Positions 27,246 through 31,441 of a stretch of 64,000 nt of DNA are shown piece after piece. The stretch covers positions 9,640 to 73,639 of the forward strand of contig JAJZJQ010000001.1 of the NCBI GenBank assembly GCA_021851065.1, written 5' to 3'. The stretch's first letter is position 1; every line of letters starts with the position of its first letter. Below the pieces are notes generated by a model. It was not told the origin of the DNA, searched no databases, and saw only the letters and a list, made by a program, of their open reading frames with translations. A program made the translations under genes and the position numbers. The stretch is from Candidatus Micrarchaeota archaeon. GTDB taxonomy: Archaea; Micrarchaeota; Micrarchaeia; Micrarchaeales; CABMGC01.

Positions 27246-28652
27246 CTATAGCGAAAGGACAAGAAATGGAAGCAGTCCCAGTGCTATGGATGAGCATAGT
27301 AGCAGCATTCCGGAAACCATGACGTCAGTCGAGAGCGTACGGTACGGCTCAGTGGCTTCCGACGAGTTTATGAACATCCTCTCTATTACCCAGAAAAGCG
27401 CCGCGCCCATGAGGAATATTCCTGCAAGAGGCACTATGCCAGTCACTCCGAATGCAATTGCTGCGCCTATGAATACGAGTATGTCTGCTATGAATGCTGC
27501 AGTTAGAGGCAGGCCTATGGCCCCGAACACGCCTATTATGAACAGATAAGAGAGCCCGGCGAAGTTCTTGATCACGCCTTTTATCTTGCTGATCTCCAGG
27601 GTGCCGTATAACTCGTCAAGGGTACCTGCAACGAGAAAGAGCAGTGATATCGCAAGGCCATGGCTGAGCATGAAATATACGGCGCCTGTTGTGCCAACTG
27701 AATTTAGCGCGCTAAGGCCGACGCCTACGATGCCCATGTCAACTATGCTGGTGTATGCTATAAGCCTCTTGACATTTGATTGCACAAGGCACACTATACC
27801 AGAATATATTGCAGAGAACAGGAAAATGAGAAGCAGGTATGGTGCATAATGCGAGGCTATTGGCAGCATCAGATAGGTGAGCAGCAGCAGGTAGCCTCCG
27901 AACTTTAGCAGAACTCCTGCAAGTATCATGCTTCCTGTAGTTGGCGCCTCAGTATGAGCGTCAGGCAGCCAGGTATGCAGGGGGAAGACTGGCATCTTTA
28001 TCATGAAAGACACGATGAATAGCAGCATAACAAGCAGCTGGGTACGGGCGCTTATGCTGGCAGATGAAGCTATTATTGCGCTTATGCTAAAGGTATGGGG
28101 AACGGTGGAGCTATACAGCAGCATTATCCCTATGAGCAGCAGCAGACTTGATATTGCCGAGTATATTATGAACTTTATGCCGGCATACCTCCGGTTATAT
28201 CCGCCGTACATGAATATTATGAAGAACATCACTACTTCAGCAAGCTCCCAGAATATGTACAGTATGAAGAGGTTTGATGCGGCAAACACGCCAAGAGATG
28301 ACGCCTCTGCTATGAGGAATATGAAATTGTATATCCTCTGCCTCTCACCCATGAAGTATTTGCCGACAATAGAAGCGGCAAGGAATACAATAGAAGCCAT
28401 CAGCATCAGTACGAGCGTTGGGGCAGTCGCGTAGAGGCTGAAATCCAGGTTTAGCTGCGGAATGTAGCCAAAGCTCAGCGACAGAGAGCCGATGCCGTAT
28501 TCGTACGAAGCCGCAATCGATATCAGCGTGAGTGCAAATGTTATCGCAGAAGCCGCAAGGGCTATGGAGTGGGCGTGCTTGCTATCGATTACCAGCACCG
28601 CGGCTGCTGCTGCGAAAGGGACCAGTATGAGTGCGAGAAGTACCAGCATCAT
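27246..28652 (-). CDS. NuoM/ND4/MrpD-type antiporter-like (proton-conducting) membrane subunit, orphan
   Basis: 468 aa; FWELAEV (TM5 Glu), IKMPVFPLHTWLPDAHTEAPTTGSMILAGVLLKFGGY (TM7/TM8 Lys); ATGA overlap with the upstream AAA gene. Confidence 0.85.
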   Translation of the reverse strand: MMLVLLALILVPFAAAAAVLVIDSKHAHSIALAASAITFALTLISIAASYEYGIGSLSLSFGYIPQLNLDFSLYATAPTLVLMLMASIVFLAASIVGKYFMGERQRIYNFIFLIAEASSLGVFAASNLFILYIFWELAEVVMFFIIFMYGGYNRRYAGIKFIIYSAISSLLLLIGIMLLYSSTVPHTFSISAIIASSASISARTQLLVMLLFIVSFMIKMPVFPLHTWLPDAHTEAPTTGSMILAGVLLKFGGYLLLLTYLMLPIASHYAPYLLLIFLFSAIYSGIVCLVQSNVKRLIAYTSIVDMGIVGVGLSALNSVGTTGAVYFMLSHGLAISLLFLVAGTLDELYGTLEISKIKGVIKNFAGLSYLFIIGVFGAIGLPLTAAFIADILVFIGAAIAFGVTGIVPLAGIFLMGAALFWVIERMFINSSEATEPYRTLSTDVMVSGMLLLCSSIALGLLPFLVLSL

Positions 28653-31441
28653 CTACCACCATATAGAGAGATGAAGCTCATATAGCTTCCCATAGTATTG
28701 GATGGCGCTGAAGGCTTTATCGCATGTATTATCTCAAGCATGTCGTCCATCGTTATCCTCTTCTCCTTCGATGAGGAAAGGTCGGCCTCAAGCGCCCCCA
28801 TCTTCGCTTCCCTGCAAATGTTGGCGATATCGGCACCAGTGTACCCTTCTGTCTGTGAGGCGAGCCTCTCGAAGTCCATGTCGCCGTCAAGAGGCACCTT
28901 CTTGAGGTTCTCGCGGAATATGCTGGCCCTGTCCTGGCTTCCTGGAGGAGGCACGAATATGAATTTGTCTACCCTTCCTGGCCTTATTATCGCCGTATCA
29001 AGCATGTCTGGCCTGTTGGTTGCGCCCACCATGACTATGCCGCTTGCATCCTTCATGCCATCCAGCTCCTGCAGGAACTCGCTTGTTATCTGGATGTAGA
29101 GCTGGCCGGAGTCGCTCCTGCTGGGCAGCAGCGCATCTATCTCGTCTATGAATATTATGCATGGCGCATTCTCCCTGGCCCTGTTGAACGCCTCGCGTAT
29201 AGTCGCTAGCGCATTCTCGAACCCATTCTTGGATATCTCGGCCCCAGAGAGCGTTATGAGTTTTACGCCGTCAAGCTCGTTTGCCACTGCCCTTATTAGC
29301 ATGGTCTTTCCTGTTCCTGGAGGACCGAACAGGAGTATGCCGCGTATATCCTTTACGTCATATTTCTTCATGAGATTTGGGTGCAATATTGGTATTTCTA
29401 TGGCTTCGTAGAGTGCTTTCTTGGCCTTCTCCAGACCGACCACGTCCGATACGCGCACCGTATCCTCGTTCTCAGCGAACCTCTCAGGGTGGGCGCGGCG
29501 CTCGTAGTCCGTCTTGAACTGGTTGTACTTGTCTATGGAAGCCAGCGACGTGGATGGTTTCGTGACATTTATGACATCCAGCATGTCCTGCAGCGTTATC
29601 TTGAGAACCTTGTGCTGCCGTATCGCCTCCTCAGCAACCTGCCTTGCAGCCTCATCGCATACATTCTTTATATCTGCGCCGCTGTACCGGCTGGTGACGC
29701 CTGCCAGCTTCTGGTAATCCAGGCTGTCGTCCGCAGGGAAGCGGCCCATATGGTGCTCGAATATTTTTGCCCTTCCGGACCTGTCCGGCAGCTGCATGTA
29801 CATTATTTTATCGAATCTTCCTGGCCTCATTATGCTTTCGTCGAGAAGCTGTGGAGAGTTGGTCGAACCGACGATGACCACCCCGTCTACCCTCTGGAAC
29901 CCGTCCATCTCACTTAGCAGCGTAGTCAATACCTGCCGGCTTATGTCGCTTTCCTGTGCTTCCCGCTTGGAAGCTATGCCATCGATCTCGTCGAAGAATA
30001 GCACGGCAGGAGTGTGCTTGCGTGCTGTCTCAAAGACCTTTGATAGCGCCTGCGCACTCTCCCCCTGAAAAGGGGATATTAGCGATGATGTCTTTACGTA
30101 AAAAAATCTGGCGCGTATCTCGTTTGCTATGGCACGCATCATCAGGGTCTTTCCTGTCCCTGGAGGACCGAACATGAGTATGCCCTTGGCTGGCTTGACG
30201 TTGTAAGCTCCAGCTATCTCCCTGTGCTCTATAGGGGCAAGTATGGCCTCACGCAGCTCCTTTTTGGTCTGGTCGTAATTTGCCACATCGTCGAGGGTCT
30301 CCCTACTGCCACTTGTGATGTCCTCGAATGCCTCGCCGAACTTTCCCAGAAAGTCGCGCTTCATCACGTCAAGCGCCCTGGCTACTTCGATGTTGGAGCT
30401 TTCGAGCGCGAACACCACAATGGTTGCTAGCGGGAAACTTATCATCGACAGCAGATTTGGCTGGTAGCCGCTGAACAGGGCCATGCCGGCATACGCTGCA
30501 AGTATTACGAATCCGTATAGACTGGCCTCTGCGCCCTTGAACGCCGATCTGCTCTTTATCACGTAATTTACCATTGCAAACACGGTTATGAGCCATACGA
30601 AGAGTTGTATCAGGGTAAGCTCTAGGCTGTAGGCAACAGATGCGATAGCCATCCCAAAAGCAGCGAAGATCTGATCGGCTACATTGAAGCTGAACATCCT
30701 GCCCATAGCAGCGCCAATGCCAGGAGGAAACTGCAATGCTGTTGGAGCAGGCATGGATGGAGAGAGGTACTGAAGCGCTAAACCGGATGGGAAAGAGCTG
30801 TGGGCAATTGTTGCGTTGTATACGATTGGGGCGCTGATGCTGATTCCGGTGAGCCCTGCCAGCATTGGCACCATCAGCAGTATCACTGCGGTAGACACTA
30901 TGGATCTGCGGTAGCCTATGAAAAGCACGCCTATTATGAAGACAGGTATCTCTAGCAGAGAGCCCAGATACGACAATGGCAGCATTATCATTACATATAT
31001 GAATGTTATTGTACGGTAGTGCCTGTATCCAAGTATCAGGGATATGCTGATGAACAGCGTGAAGATCCAGGCGAACAGGGGAGCCTGGTAGATGAACATT
31101 AGCAGGGTCTCAAACAGCATTGCCATTAGCCCGCCTAGTGGCAGCACAAGCGTTATTACGAATGTCACTATTACAAGGGGTATGAGTACTATTGGAGGGA
31201 AGAGGGGGAATGCTATGGCCACGCTTATGATGGCAAAGGCTATTGCAAGAGCGTCGGGGAAGTTCTTGCGGCTGGAGAAATCCTTCAGCAGGTCTTTTGC
31301 TATGAAGTAGAACATGGGCAGGTATGACGCACGGCTGTGCACAGGCTGGCTGCCACCCACAGGCCTCTTGAATGAAACTTCAGATTTGCCATCCACAACT
31401 TGTTTCTTCTGGGTGTGCTTGTAGGCCATAGGCAGTATCAC
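28649..31441 (-). CDS. polytopic-membrane tandem AAA+ ATPase (CDC48/VAT-like D1-D2 with the N domain replaced by a ~370-aa multi-TM domain)
   Basis: Two Walker A GPPGTGKT; Walker B LFFDEID and IIFIDEID; SRH GSTNSPQLLDESIMRPGRFD and GATNRPDMLDTAIIRPGRVD; N-terminal third almost entirely hydrophobic; start is GTG 31441 or ATG 31429. Confidence 0.85.
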   Translation of the reverse strand: MILPMAYKHTQKKQVVDGKSEVSFKRPVGGSQPVHSRASYLPMFYFIAKDLLKDFSSRKNFPDALAIAFAIISVAIAFPLFPPIVLIPLVIVTFVITLVLPLGGLMAMLFETLLMFIYQAPLFAWIFTLFISISLILGYRHYRTITFIYVMIMLPLSYLGSLLEIPVFIIGVLFIGYRRSIVSTAVILLMVPMLAGLTGISISAPIVYNATIAHSSFPSGLALQYLSPSMPAPTALQFPPGIGAAMGRMFSFNVADQIFAAFGMAIASVAYSLELTLIQLFVWLITVFAMVNYVIKSRSAFKGAEASLYGFVILAAYAGMALFSGYQPNLLSMISFPLATIVVFALESSNIEVARALDVMKRDFLGKFGEAFEDITSGSRETLDDVANYDQTKKELREAILAPIEHREIAGAYNVKPAKGILMFGPPGTGKTLMMRAIANEIRARFFYVKTSSLISPFQGESAQALSKVFETARKHTPAVLFFDEIDGIASKREAQESDISRQVLTTLLSEMDGFQRVDGVVIVGSTNSPQLLDESIMRPGRFDKIMYMQLPDRSGRAKIFEHHMGRFPADDSLDYQKLAGVTSRYSGADIKNVCDEAARQVAEEAIRQHKVLKITLQDMLDVINVTKPSTSLASIDKYNQFKTDYERRAHPERFAENEDTVRVSDVVGLEKAKKALYEAIEIPILHPNLMKKYDVKDIRGILLFGPPGTGKTMLIRAVANELDGVKLITLSGAEISKNGFENALATIREAFNRARENAPCIIFIDEIDALLPSRSDSGQLYIQITSEFLQELDGMKDASGIVMVGATNRPDMLDTAIIRPGRVDKFIFVPPPGSQDRASIFRENLKKVPLDGDMDFERLASQTEGYTGADIANICREAKMGALEADLSSSKEKRITMDDMLEIIHAIKPSAPSNTMGSYMSFISLYGGR

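What the first reader, a model, noticed from the sequence alone, without database searches (positions are those of the whole stretch)
28649..31441. Tandem-AAA+ (CDC48/VAT-like) ATPase whose N domain is replaced by a ~370-aa polytopic membrane domain
SEEN: the first ~370 residues are almost entirely hydrophobic. By eye I count roughly 8-10 TM-length segments. Two complete classic-clade AAA modules follow:
- Walker A GPPGTGKT, twice
- Walker B LFFDEID and IIFIDEID
- second-region-of-homology GSTNSPQLLDESIMRPGRFD and GATNRPDMLDTAIIRPGRVD
There is no protease, KH or other soluble N-terminal domain.

ESTABLISHED: type-II AAA unfoldases (CDC48/p97/VAT) use a soluble N domain for substrate and adaptor binding. 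The known membrane AAA FtsH has one AAA module, two TM helices and a protease domain. The membrane-bound AAA proteins described in Sulfolobus carry, as far as I recall, a single AAA module.

INFERENCE: a D1-D2 hexamer sitting directly on a large integral-membrane platform suggests one of three roles: a membrane-protein extractase, a translocon-associated motor, or an ATP-driven gating device. I know of no characterised equivalent.
Basis: partly seen in the sequence, partly recalled or inferred. Interest (0 to 1): 0.8.

Follow-up and report, generated by a model that had tools for sequence, protein, structure and literature searches.

The report
Membrane-embedded tandem AAA motor of Micrarchaeota
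This gene encodes a protein-unfolding motor with two ATPase rings fused to a ten-helix membrane domain of no known family; most genomes of one phylum of tiny symbiotic archaea carry it, and nobody appears to have described it.

Summary
Window 28649-31441 (-) is one intact ORF of 930 aa, probably 926 aa from the ATG at 31429.

- **Architecture:** a basic cytoplasmic tail, a polytopic membrane domain read as 10 TM helices (residues ~61-348), a ~30-aa linker, and two complete classic-clade AAA modules.
- **Not an artefact:** the fused form occurs in 250 of 301 sampled genomes of the organism's phylum (Micrarchaeota). It is nearly always single copy and ~900-980 aa.
- **Restricted:** no hit carries a name from any other lineage, and no credible stand-alone membrane domain turned up.
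- **Membrane domain:** no Pfam, NCBIfam or PDB sequence match and no Foldseek match. Its second half looks weakly like ECF-transporter S-components by shape only. A profile comparison does not support homology (0.2 %).
- **AAA modules:** closest to CDC48/p97/VAT but a separate lineage. There is no CDC48 N domain, the CDC48 model score is below cut-off, and there is no C-terminal HbYX motif.
- **Pore loops:** D1, next to the membrane, keeps an aromatic pore loop. D2 does not.
- **Inferred role:** the membrane lies at the substrate-entry face, which favours pulling polypeptides from the membrane into the cytoplasm over export. The substrate is unknown.
- **Gene neighbours:** they vary by lineage. 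They are a complex-I-type subunit in the window's own family and an S-layer gene in at least five other families.

Verdict: a real, undescribed variant of a known kind.

The parts
28649..31441 (-). Whole TM-AAA ORF: 930 aa from GTG at 31441, or more likely 926 aa from ATG at 31429. The stop codon is at 28649-28651.
   Evidence: identical 926-aa database protein; upstream TATA-like box
31262..31441 (-). Basic N-terminal tail, residues 1-60, predicted cytoplasmic. It holds 11 Lys/Arg. Residues 1-41 are disordered in the model, followed by a helix at 43-56.
30398..31261 (-). Polytopic membrane domain, residues 61-348, read as 10 TM helices with N-in/C-in topology. Conserved motifs lie on both faces: FPD (61-63), YQAP (118-121), GY[KR]HYR (138-143), LPLS (154-157), LEIP (163-166), G[FY][KR]R (176-179), KSRSxYKG (296-303).
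   Evidence: no Pfam or NCBIfam hit
30671..30847 (-). Long loop between TM7 and TM8, residues 199-257, predicted extracellular. It is Ser/Pro/Ala-rich, has almost no charge, and contains short helices.
30308..30397 (-). Linker, residues 349-378. It contains a conserved helix VMKQDFLGKFGEAF and a low-confidence hinge at 374-378 that tethers D1 to TM10.
29492..30307 (-). AAA module D1 with lid, residues 379-650. Walker A is at 30146-30169, Walker B is D484/E485, sensor-1 is N528, and the arginines are R539 and R542.
30059..30076 (-). D1 pore loop 1, SPFQGE. The family consensus is S-P-[YF]-x-G-E, and the position is aromatic in 39 of 45 homologues.
28652..29491 (-). AAA module D2 with lid and C-terminal helix, residues 651-930. 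The ATPase motifs are intact. The tail ends ...LYGGR, with family pattern [YH]-G-x-[RK], which is not HbYX.
29222..29230 (-). D2 pore loop position, KNG. The family pattern is [KR]-x-G; the aromatic pair of CDC48 D2 is missing.
27246..28652 (-). Downstream gene for a 468-aa NuoM/N- or MrpD-type antiporter-like subunit (PF00361). Its start overlaps the AAA stop by 4 nt. This is context, not a proven partner.
   Evidence: linkage is limited to the window's own family, and the family is not found in two near-complete genomes that have the TM-AAA

Best explanation
**What it is.** The gene encodes a membrane-integral type-II (tandem) AAA+ unfoldase found so far only in Micrarchaeota.

**Shown by tool results.**
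- One polypeptide carries a 10-TM domain, a ~30-residue linker, then D1 and D2.
- The 10-TM domain belongs to no described family.
- All ATPase motifs are invariant in both rings.
- The aromatic pore loop is kept only in D1, the ring next to the membrane.
- The fusion is single copy and present in most sampled genomes of the phylum.

**Inferred.**
- Like other classic-clade AAA proteins it should form a hexamer. That would place six 10-TM domains (60 helices) around the entrance of the D1 pore, close to the inner face of the membrane.
- Solved substrate-bound AAA translocases (Cdc48, VAT, FtsH/Yme1, Msp1) move the chain from the N-terminal face towards the C-terminal face. This geometry therefore makes the motor a puller. 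D1 would grip a polypeptide segment presented by or through the membrane domain and drag it out of the bilayer into the cytoplasm.
- D2 would add ATP-driven force or ring stability.
- The most likely role is a membrane-protein dislocase or extractase for quality control or turnover of envelope proteins.
- The extracted chain is probably handed on to soluble proteases rather than to a proteasome docked on D2, because the C-terminus lacks the HbYX docking motif.

**Unknown.** The substrate has not been identified.

**Confidence.** The stated confidence refers to the extractase mechanism. That the gene encodes a real, conserved, membrane-integral tandem AAA ATPase is close to certain.
For: **Architecture and motifs.**

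**Topology.** It rests on the hydropathy profile, the AF2 model (pLDDT 91.8) and 21 Lys/Arg inside against 1 outside.

**Short tether.** The linker has a conserved helix and a low-confidence hinge at residues 374-378.

**Pore loops.**
- D1 is S-P-[YF]-x-G, aromatic in 39 of 45 homologues.
- D2 is [KR]-x-G.
- The same genome's canonical CDC48 has aromatic loops in both rings.

**Similarity.** D1 and D2 are closest to CDC48/p97/VAT unfoldases, with E-values of 1e-106 to 1e-109.

**Conservation.**
- 250 of 301 genomes carry it, 151 of 176 among high-quality genomes, and 105 of 129 genera. Frames are ~900-980 aa.
- Conserved motifs lie on both faces of the membrane domain. That argues for more than a passive anchor.

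**Always fused.** The membrane domain was never seen convincingly without the AAA modules.

**Proteolytic background.** The genome has LonB, a second Lon-like protein and 20S alpha and beta subunits, but no FtsH protease domain.
Against: - There is no direct functional evidence of any kind.
- The hexamer could not be modelled. How the six membrane domains are arranged, and whether they form a conduit, is unknown.
- The organism already has membrane-bound LonB for membrane-protein quality control, so a second general system is not obviously needed.
- Three families of the phylum gave no match (0 of 7, 0 of 15 and 0 of 5 genomes). The function is therefore dispensable or replaceable.
- Conserved residues on the outer face and a 59-residue outer loop suggest something specific happens outside the cell. 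A plain quality-control extractase does not explain this.
- The direction of translocation is inferred from other AAA proteins, not shown here.
Confidence: 0.45

Rival explanations
1. It is an envelope or S-layer motor. The protein would act on the S-layer protein or another surface structure, for example by retracting, turning over or remodelling it. This could happen at the contact site with the host, with the outer loop and outer-face motifs of the membrane domain engaging the surface protein.
For: - In at least five other families of the phylum (f6, f7, f13, f15, f27), an S-layer-like gene lies directly downstream on the same strand. It matches PF05124 and encodes 819-1023 aa.
- This holds in 10 genomes, with gaps of 247-519 nt where measured. 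A ~700-aa unknown protein follows in some of them. In three more genomes the S-layer gene lies within 2-3 kb (places compared).
- The membrane domain has conserved outer-face motifs and a 59-residue outer loop.
- The family is limited to one phylum of host-attached archaea.
Against: - The pairing is missing in the window's own family and order. S-layer genes there lie 25-500 kb away or on other contigs in 11 genomes compared. In this genome the S-layer gene is split over two other contig ends.
- Families that gave no TM-AAA match still have S-layer genes (f9 7/7, f10 15/15, f14 5/5).
- Intergenic gaps of a few hundred bases fit separate promoters and plain synteny.
Confidence: 0.15
2. It is an assembly or quality-control factor for respiratory membrane subunits. 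The motor would insert, mature or remove complex-I/Mrp-type antiporter-like subunits. This would be loosely comparable to dedicated AAA assembly factors such as Bcs1.
For: - In the window the 468-aa PF00361 gene overlaps the AAA stop codon by 4 nt.
- The same overlapping or abutting pair occurs in three other genomes of the family.
- In most other members of that family a PF00361 gene or a whole Nuo-type operon lies within 0-4 kb.
Against: - The linkage is confined to one family (f1) and is absent in all loci examined outside it.
- Two near-complete genomes have the TM-AAA but no PF00361 match anywhere. One is a single contig and 96 % complete; the other is two contigs and 96 % complete.
- Other genomes keep their PF00361 genes hundreds of kb away.
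- Several other neighbours are also conserved in the same family, so this looks like residual synteny.
Confidence: 0.07
3. It is a transporter or receptor-like device. The membrane domain would bind or carry a small molecule, with its TM5-10 bundle resembling ECF S-components, and the AAA rings would regulate or energise it.
For: - The 14 best rows of the Foldseek-independent PDB search are all ECF S-components, among them ThiT, BioY, RibU, FolT, PanT, CbiM and BtuM. Z is 5.9-8.0 over 139-163 aligned residues at rmsd 3.8-5.6 A, on model residues ~131-363.
- The ESM Atlas shape search also returns BioY, ECF_trnsprt and Vut_1 clusters, with TM-scores of 0.55-0.61 by target.
Against: - Z is under 8, which the tool's own note places within chance arrangements for helical bundles.
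- Foldseek finds nothing.
- The PF12822 model never hits the TM-AAA locus in 121 genomes, and no member matches any Pfam family.
- The profile-profile comparison with an S-component alignment gives a probability of 0.2 %, and on a different region.
- I know of no precedent for a classic-clade AAA ring energising small-molecule transport (from my own knowledge).
Confidence: 0.05
4. It is an assembly or gene-calling artefact, in which two genes (a membrane protein and a CDC48-like ATPase) were fused by a frameshift.
For: Nothing positive. Some database entries of ~630-720 aa or ~250-450 aa look like split forms.
Against: - The same fused frame is present in 250 of 301 genomes.
- Contigs of two further runs carry no indels in the ORF.
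- Short forms sit on short contigs, reach contig ends, or have a broken D2.
Confidence: 0.01

Closest known systems
CDC48 / p97 / VAT (type-II AAA unfoldases)
   Same: - Two classic-clade AAA modules in tandem, each with a lid domain, and both ATP sites intact.
- These are the best sequence matches for both modules.
- The protein presumably forms a hexamer that threads substrate from D1 to D2.
   Different: - It has no double-psi-barrel/beta-clam N domain; a 10-TM domain takes that place.
- It scores below the curated CDC48 cut-off (465.6 against 802.65).
- D1 and D2 form clades of their own outside the CDC48 D1+D2 pair.
- The aromatic pore loop is kept in D1 only.
- There is no HbYX tail, whereas the same genome's canonical 722-aa CDC48 ends in ...MYR.
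FtsH and the mitochondrial i-/m-AAA proteases
   Same: They are membrane-anchored AAA rings whose N-terminal face lies against the membrane. They pull membrane proteins out of the bilayer.
   Different: - FtsH has two TM helices, one AAA module and a fused M41 protease.
- This protein has 10 TM helices, two AAA modules and no protease domain.
- The M41 domain is not found in this genome or in four relatives.
Msp1 / ATAD1 and Bcs1 (membrane-anchored single-ring AAA proteins)
   Same: The anchor is N-terminal, so the pore entrance faces the membrane. Msp1 is a pure extractase without a protease, which is the working model proposed here.
   Different: Both have a single TM helix and one AAA ring. 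Both are eukaryotic. They share no relationship with this membrane domain.
MBA, the membrane-bound AAA proteins of Sulfolobus
   Same: They are archaeal AAA proteins with N-terminal membrane anchoring. PMC3493965 lists them as a separate archaeal AAA group.
   Different: As far as I recall, MBA proteins have one AAA module and two TM helices around an outer domain. The primary paper is not in the searchable library. This protein has two modules and 10 TM helices. No MBA sequence was available for a direct comparison.
Cdc48 with Hrd1/Derlin (ERAD) and Pex1/Pex6 with Pex15/Pex26
   Same: A tandem AAA motor works at a membrane and pulls polypeptides out of or through it.
   Different: In those systems the motor is soluble and is recruited to separate membrane proteins. 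Here motor and membrane domain are one polypeptide. The Hrd1 rows in the fold search are weak (Z 4.6-4.8 over about 80 residues).
ECF-transporter S-components
   Same: TM5-10 of the model superposes loosely on the six-helix S-component bundle, and both have cytoplasmic termini.
   Different: There is no sequence or profile signal. S-components work with ABC ATPases and a T component, not with AAA rings.

Membership tests
Classic-clade AAA ATPases (PF00004) | Walker A, Walker B, sensor-1 Asn and a second region of homology with two arginines | tested here: met
   There are two PF00004 hits (E 2.2e-78) with two AAA_lid_3 domains. All these residues are invariant in both modules across 45 homologues.
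CDC48/VAT/p97 family (TIGR01243) | Whole-protein score above the curated cut-off | tested here: not met
   The score is 465.6 bits against a cut-off of 802.65.
CDC48/VAT/p97 family (TIGR01243) | N-terminal double-psi barrel plus beta-clam (CDC48_N, CDC48_2) | tested here: not met
   Residues 1-400 give no Pfam or NCBIfam hit. The model is all-helical and membrane-embedded. The ARM-1 genome's canonical CDC48 carries both domains, and this genome encodes a separate canonical-length (722-aa) CDC48-like protein.
CDC48/VAT/p97 family (TIGR01243) | D1 and D2 orthologous to CDC48 D1 and D2 | tested here: not met
   In the tree, CDC48 D1 and D2 are sisters (98/94) and join TM-AAA D2 (96/90), while TM-AAA D1 stands apart. 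Caveat: only two CDC48 proteins were included, and the tree was drawn with a midpoint root beside one long-branch single-AAA protein.
Archaeal proteasomal ATPases (PAN, CDC48, AMA) | C-terminal HbYX motif: hydrophobic residue, then Tyr/Phe, then any residue at the very end (PMC3493965) | tested here: not met
   The tail ends ...LYGGR, with family pattern [YH]-G-x-[RK]. The aromatic residue is at -4 and lies within a predicted helix (residues 914-927).
FtsH (TIGR01241) | One AAA module followed by an M41 zinc protease, with two TM helices | tested here: not met
   The score is 393.3 bits against a cut-off of 600, over the AAA part only. PF01434 is found neither in the protein nor in the genome.
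Archaeal LonB | AAA+ module with a TM insertion and a C-terminal Lon protease domain | tested here: not met
   The protein has no Lon_C hit. LonB-like genes lie elsewhere in the genome.
MBA (Sulfolobus membrane-bound AAA) | A single AAA module behind a two-TM N-terminal domain (from memory; the group is named in PMC3493965) | tested here: not met
   This protein has two AAA modules and about 10 TM helices. A sequence comparison with MBA proteins was not possible because none was on hand.
ECF-transporter S-component (PF12822, PF02632) | Sequence or profile match to the family | tested here: not met
   No member of the N-domain alignment hits it even at E <= 1. The HMM hits other loci, never this one, in 121 genomes. 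The hhalign probability is 0.2 %.
ECF-transporter S-component (PF12822, PF02632) | Six-helix S-component fold | tested here: inconclusive
   The top 14 VIA rows are S-components, at Z 5.9-8.0 over 139-163 residues and rmsd 3.8-5.6 A. Atlas TM-scores by target are 0.55-0.61. These values lie within the range the tool calls common for helical bundles.

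The most novel reading that the evidence does not exclude
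The six 10-TM domains would form a protein-conducting channel that is part of the motor itself. The D1-D2 rings would pull polypeptides from outside the cell across the membrane into the cytoplasm. Those polypeptides could be S-layer or other envelope proteins, or proteins taken from the host on which these reduced archaea depend. This would be a self-contained retrotranslocon or protein-import machine with no described counterpart, and a lineage-defining part of the Micrarchaeota symbiotic lifestyle.
Probability: 0.1. Interest if true: 0.9.

Novelty: new variant of a known kind. Interest (0 to 1): 0.62.

Why it matters
**For the AAA+ field.** Known tandem AAA unfoldases that work at membranes (Cdc48 in ERAD, Pex1/Pex6, and HSP101 in PTEX) are soluble motors recruited to separate membrane proteins. 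Known membrane-anchored AAA proteins (FtsH, Msp1, Bcs1, and as far as I recall MBA) have one ring and one or two TM helices. A single polypeptide that joins a 10-TM domain of unknown fold to a D1-D2 motor is a compact natural system. It could show how an unfoldase engages substrates in or across a bilayer.

**For archaeal biology.** The protein is found in most sampled genomes of the phylum, is nearly always single copy, and has so far been seen only in Micrarchaeota. These genomes are about 1 Mb and their owners depend on hosts. A 930-aa gene kept in such genomes is likely to matter for the cell envelope or the host interface.

**For follow-up.** Cultured representatives encode it, for example the ARM-1 strain as ARM1_0067, so biochemical and structural tests are feasible.

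Tried and rejected
- **Homodimer of the membrane domain** (residues 41-372, two copies): no verdict, score 0.00. This counts neither for nor against self-association.
- **Expression:** no RNA holder was listed for this stretch. The only holders are four DNA runs of one mine-drainage study.
- **Foldseek against the PDB:** no match. The best E-value is 0.45 and TM-scores are under 0.2.
- **Profile of the membrane domain against PDB sequences:** zero hits even at E <= 10.
- **Pfam scan of all 53 membrane-domain sequences at E <= 1:** only scattered chance hits.
- **Atlas feature search:** no usable hit.
- **ECF S-component homology:** rejected at the sequence level.
- **A universal gene partner:** rejected. 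Clustering of ORFs from 35 loci found no neighbour shared across families.
- **Dependence on complex-I or Mrp subunits:** rejected.
- **An operon with the upstream V_ATPase_I-like gene:** unlikely, because a tRNA gene on the opposite strand lies between the two genes.
- **A natural single-ring variant (~650 aa):** the two examples examined end 63 nt from a contig end or have a fragmented D2.
- **A stand-alone membrane domain:** the only candidates are fragments on contigs of 1.2-4.9 kb.
- **Proteasome docking through HbYX:** the motif is absent.
- **Literature:** six full-text searches found no description of this family. The adjacent citations of an ECF S-component and VAT in PMC9258230 concern unrelated Thermococci families.
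- **ARAGORN on 26000-36000:** it found no tRNA, although one with an intron is there.

Full report
**1. What is in the sequence**

Window 28649-31441 on the minus strand is one uninterrupted ORF of 930 codons.
- The listed start is GTG at 31441.
- An identical database protein has 926 residues, and homologues start with MP.
- An AT-rich TATA-like element lies about 30 nt upstream of the ATG at 31429.
- I therefore take residue 5 as the probable start. Residue numbers below follow the 930-aa frame.

Pfam finds two PF00004 AAA modules and two AAA_lid_3 domains. Nothing in Pfam or NCBIfam matches residues 1-400. The D1 Walker A GPPGTGKT is encoded at 30146-30169.

**2. The membrane domain**

*Topology.*
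- Kyte-Doolittle hydropathy gives TM-length segments between residues 60 and 349.
- An AlphaFold2 model of residues 1-372, built on 53 homologues, is confident (mean pLDDT 91.8, pTM 0.85).
- Its helices are 61-77, 83-99, 101-119, 121-156 (interrupted by the charged GYRHYR at 138-143), 160-175, 177-198, 258-296, 302-324 and 330-348. I read these as ten spans.
- A 59-residue loop (199-257) between TM7 and TM8 is nearly uncharged and rich in Ser, Pro and Ala.
- With the N-terminus inside, the predicted cytoplasmic segments hold 21 Lys/Arg and the outer segments hold 1. The family means are 20.9 and 2.5.
- This satisfies the positive-inside rule and puts the AAA modules in the cytoplasm.

*Conserved residues.*
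- Inner face: F61/D63, GY[KR]HYR, G176/R179 and KSRSxYKG.
- Outer face or within the bilayer: YQAP 118-121, LPLS 154-157, LEIP 163-166 and Q279/W283.
- A passive anchor would not need this pattern.

**3. The fusion is real, and where it occurs**

*Protein-database searches.*
- A word-seeded search with the membrane domain found 83 protein clusters. Nearly all are 890-970 aa and all carry AAA domains.
- Where named, they are 'AAA family ATPase' from Candidatus Micrarchaeota or Micrarchaeia. A few carry a Marsarchaeota label.
- An exhaustive HMMER search of 1.84 billion representative proteins found only 37 hits at E <= 0.001.
- The full-length hits are 887-933 aa. One is ARM1_0067 of the cultured strain ARM-1.

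*Genome survey.*
- 250 of 301 sampled genomes of the phylum have a match.
- Among high-quality genomes the count is 151 of 176, and 105 of 129 genera are covered.
- The gene is nearly always single copy, in open frames of about 900-980 aa.
- Three families gave no match (0/7, 0/15 and 0/5).

*Short forms.*
- They sit on contigs of 1.2-4.9 kb or are marked partial.
- Of two ~650-aa forms examined, one ends 63 nt from a contig end and one has a fragmented D2.
- Contigs of two further runs from the same mine-drainage study tile the ORF without indels.
- The refutation conditions 'fusion artefact' and 'no TM helices' are therefore not met.

**4. Fold of the membrane domain**

- Foldseek against the PDB finds nothing (best E-value 0.45, TM-scores under 0.2).
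- A profile search of PDB sequences finds nothing at E <= 10.
- In the Foldseek-independent search, the top 14 rows are all ECF-transporter S-components. Z is 5.9-8.0 over 139-163 residues, on model residues ~131-363, which correspond to TM5-TM10.
- The Atlas shape search also returns BioY, ECF_trnsprt and Vut_1 clusters, with TM-scores of 0.55-0.61 by target.
- The agreement between the two searches is notable. However, the tool states that Z under about 13 is common for unrelated helical bundles.

I tested this lead further.
- No family member hits PF12822 or any other Pfam family.
- The PF12822 model never hits the TM-AAA locus in 121 genomes.
- An hhalign comparison with an alignment of 27 S-components gives a probability of 0.2 %, and on a different region.

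I treat the likeness as topological at most. The domain has no known relatives.

**5. The AAA cassette**

*Similarity to known families.*
- Each module alone hits CDC48/p97/VAT best among solved structures, with E-values of 1e-106 to 1e-109.
- The whole protein is below the curated CDC48 cut-off (465.6 against 802.65 bits) and below the PAN and FtsH cut-offs.
- The genome also encodes a canonical-length, soluble 722-aa CDC48-like protein.
- Pairwise, TM-AAA D1 and D2 are 38 % identical to each other and 33-40 % identical to the CDC48 modules. The two CDC48 modules are 50 % identical to each other.

*Domain tree.*
- TM-D1 and TM-D2 are each monophyletic (100/99 and 100/98).
- CDC48 D1 and D2 are sisters (98/94), and that pair joins TM-D2 (96/90).
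- With the caveats of two CDC48 sequences and a midpoint root beside one long branch, this is a separate tandem lineage. It is not a CDC48 whose N domain was swapped.

*Features that bear on mechanism.*
- Pore loop 1 of D1 is S-P-[YF]-x-G, aromatic in 39 of 45 homologues.
- The equivalent D2 position is [KR]-x-G.
- The canonical CDC48 has aromatic loops in both rings.
- The canonical CDC48 ends in ...MYR, the HbYX proteasome-docking motif defined in PMC3493965. The TM-AAA ends in [YH]-G-x-[RK], with the aromatic residue at -4 and inside a predicted helix.

**6. Gene neighbourhood**

No neighbour is shared across the phylum.

*The window's own family (f1).*
- A 468-aa PF00361 antiporter-like subunit follows the AAA gene with a 4-nt overlap.
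- The pair recurs in three other genomes. Elsewhere in the family a PF00361 gene or a Nuo-type operon lies within 0-4 kb.
- Outside that family the link is absent.
- Two near-complete genomes have the TM-AAA but no PF00361 match at all.

*The sister family.* An OB-fold gene abuts the 3' end convergently.

*At least five other families (f6, f7, f13, f15, f27).*
- An S-layer-like gene (PF05124) lies directly downstream on the same strand in 10 genomes (one search compared).
- The pairing is not seen in f1 or f2.
- Families without a TM-AAA match still have S-layer genes.

*Upstream in the window.*
- A V_ATPase_I-like gene lies upstream.
- It is separated from the AAA gene by a tRNA gene with a 41-nt intron on the opposite strand.
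- An operon spanning both genes is therefore unlikely.

**7. How it most likely works**

*Shown.*
- One chain carries 10 TM helices, a ~30-residue linker with a conserved helix and a flexible hinge at 374-378, then D1 and D2.
- Both ATP sites are intact and invariant.
- Only D1 has an aromatic pore loop.

*Inferred from established knowledge of classic-clade AAA proteins.*
- The protein forms a hexamer.
- Substrate passes from the N-terminal face to the C-terminal face, as seen in substrate-bound Cdc48, VAT, FtsH-type and Msp1 structures.
- The membrane therefore lies at the entry face of the translocating ring.
- This geometry suits pulling chains out of, or in through, the membrane. It is the reverse of what an export motor such as HSP101 on the PTEX pore needs.

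*Best reading.*
- The protein is a membrane-integral dislocase or extractase.
- The 10-TM domains would select or present substrates.
- Without HbYX, direct docking of a proteasome on D2 is unlikely. LonB, a Lon-like protein and the 20S subunits are all encoded in the genome, and FtsH is not.
- The substrate is unknown.
- The S-layer linkage and the conserved outer face keep an envelope or host-interface role open. So does restriction to a host-dependent phylum.

**8. Comparison and novelty**

The protein should work like FtsH, Msp1 or Cdc48-Hrd1, but it is a member of none of them.
- Known membrane-anchored AAA proteins have one ring and one or two TM helices.
- Known tandem AAA motors at membranes are soluble and recruited to separate membrane proteins.
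- I found no paper describing this family in six full-text searches.
- Public records call these proteins 'AAA family ATPase', 'SpoVK/Ycf46/Vps4 family' or 'hypothetical protein'.

I rate it a new variant of a known kind. It combines a classic AAA unfoldase cassette with a new polytopic membrane domain, and it is characteristic of one phylum.

**9. Limits**

- There are no expression data.
- There is no oligomer model. The homodimer job gave no verdict.
- Topology rests on hydropathy, the model and charge bias, not on a dedicated predictor.

Noticed in passing
window 31513-31622 (+): A tRNA gene with a 41-nt insertion in the anticodon-loop region lies between the TM-AAA gene and the upstream V_ATPase_I-like gene (Rfam RF00005, 55.9 bits, E 1.5e-11). 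ARAGORN in its default mode missed it. By eye the anticodon reads GUA (Tyr). The metagenome contig depth spikes here (188 and 138 against about 8), as expected for a conserved RNA gene.
   Followed up: partly
window 31661-33244 (-): This is a stand-alone 527-aa V_ATPase_I-like membrane protein (PF01496, E 1e-22). No other ATPase subunit gene lies beside it. The next gene upstream is a divergent P-type ATPase (33518-35392 +).
   Followed up: no
window 27246-28652 (-): This is a solitary NuoM/N- or MrpD-type subunit gene (PF00361) whose start overlaps the TM-AAA stop by 4 nt. In other genomes of the same family its orthologue (50-65 % identical) sits 1-4 kb from the TM-AAA gene, and a Nuo-type operon abuts the TM-AAA 3' end.
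   Followed up: yes
L021:9993-12623 (+), and likewise L022, L038, L039, L040: In at least five other families of the phylum, an S-layer-like gene (PF05124, 819-1023 aa) directly follows the TM-AAA gene on the same strand. A ~700-aa protein of unknown family follows in some loci (seen in L021, L038, L039 and L040).
   Followed up: partly
G000 contigs C1:1318-1482 and C8:1116-1445 (L044, L045): This genome's own S-layer-like gene appears split across the starts of two contigs, so the assembly breaks inside it. Its linkage to other genes cannot be read.
   Followed up: no
window 23758-27244 (+): A block of three genes is conserved next to the TM-AAA/PF00361 pair in at least two related genomes (L006, L015). 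It comprises undecaprenyl-diphosphate-synthase-like (PF01255), DUF2070 membrane protein (607 aa) and a 313-aa protein with no Pfam match.
   Followed up: partly
window 40563-44042 (-): This 1159-aa ORF has only weak beta-propeller hits (Lactonase and WD40-like). It may be a large surface protein.
   Followed up: no
window ~46175-46726 (-) (G000:C16:55814-56365): A 20S proteasome subunit gene (PF00227, E 1.1e-47) lies about 15 kb from the TM-AAA gene. The second subunit is on contig C19.
   Followed up: no
L059:4001-6804: This TM-AAA homologue has a D2 module broken into fragments, followed by a Cas12f1/TnpB-like gene 1-2 kb downstream. It could be a pseudogene or an assembly error.
   Followed up: partly
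G000:C17 (L004:1264-2763, -): The genome's third AAA protein is a soluble 499-aa single-module AAA with a helical N-terminal region that looks TPR-like by eye. It scores below the cut-offs for FtsH, CDC48, CdvC and PAN, so its family is unassigned.
   Followed up: partly
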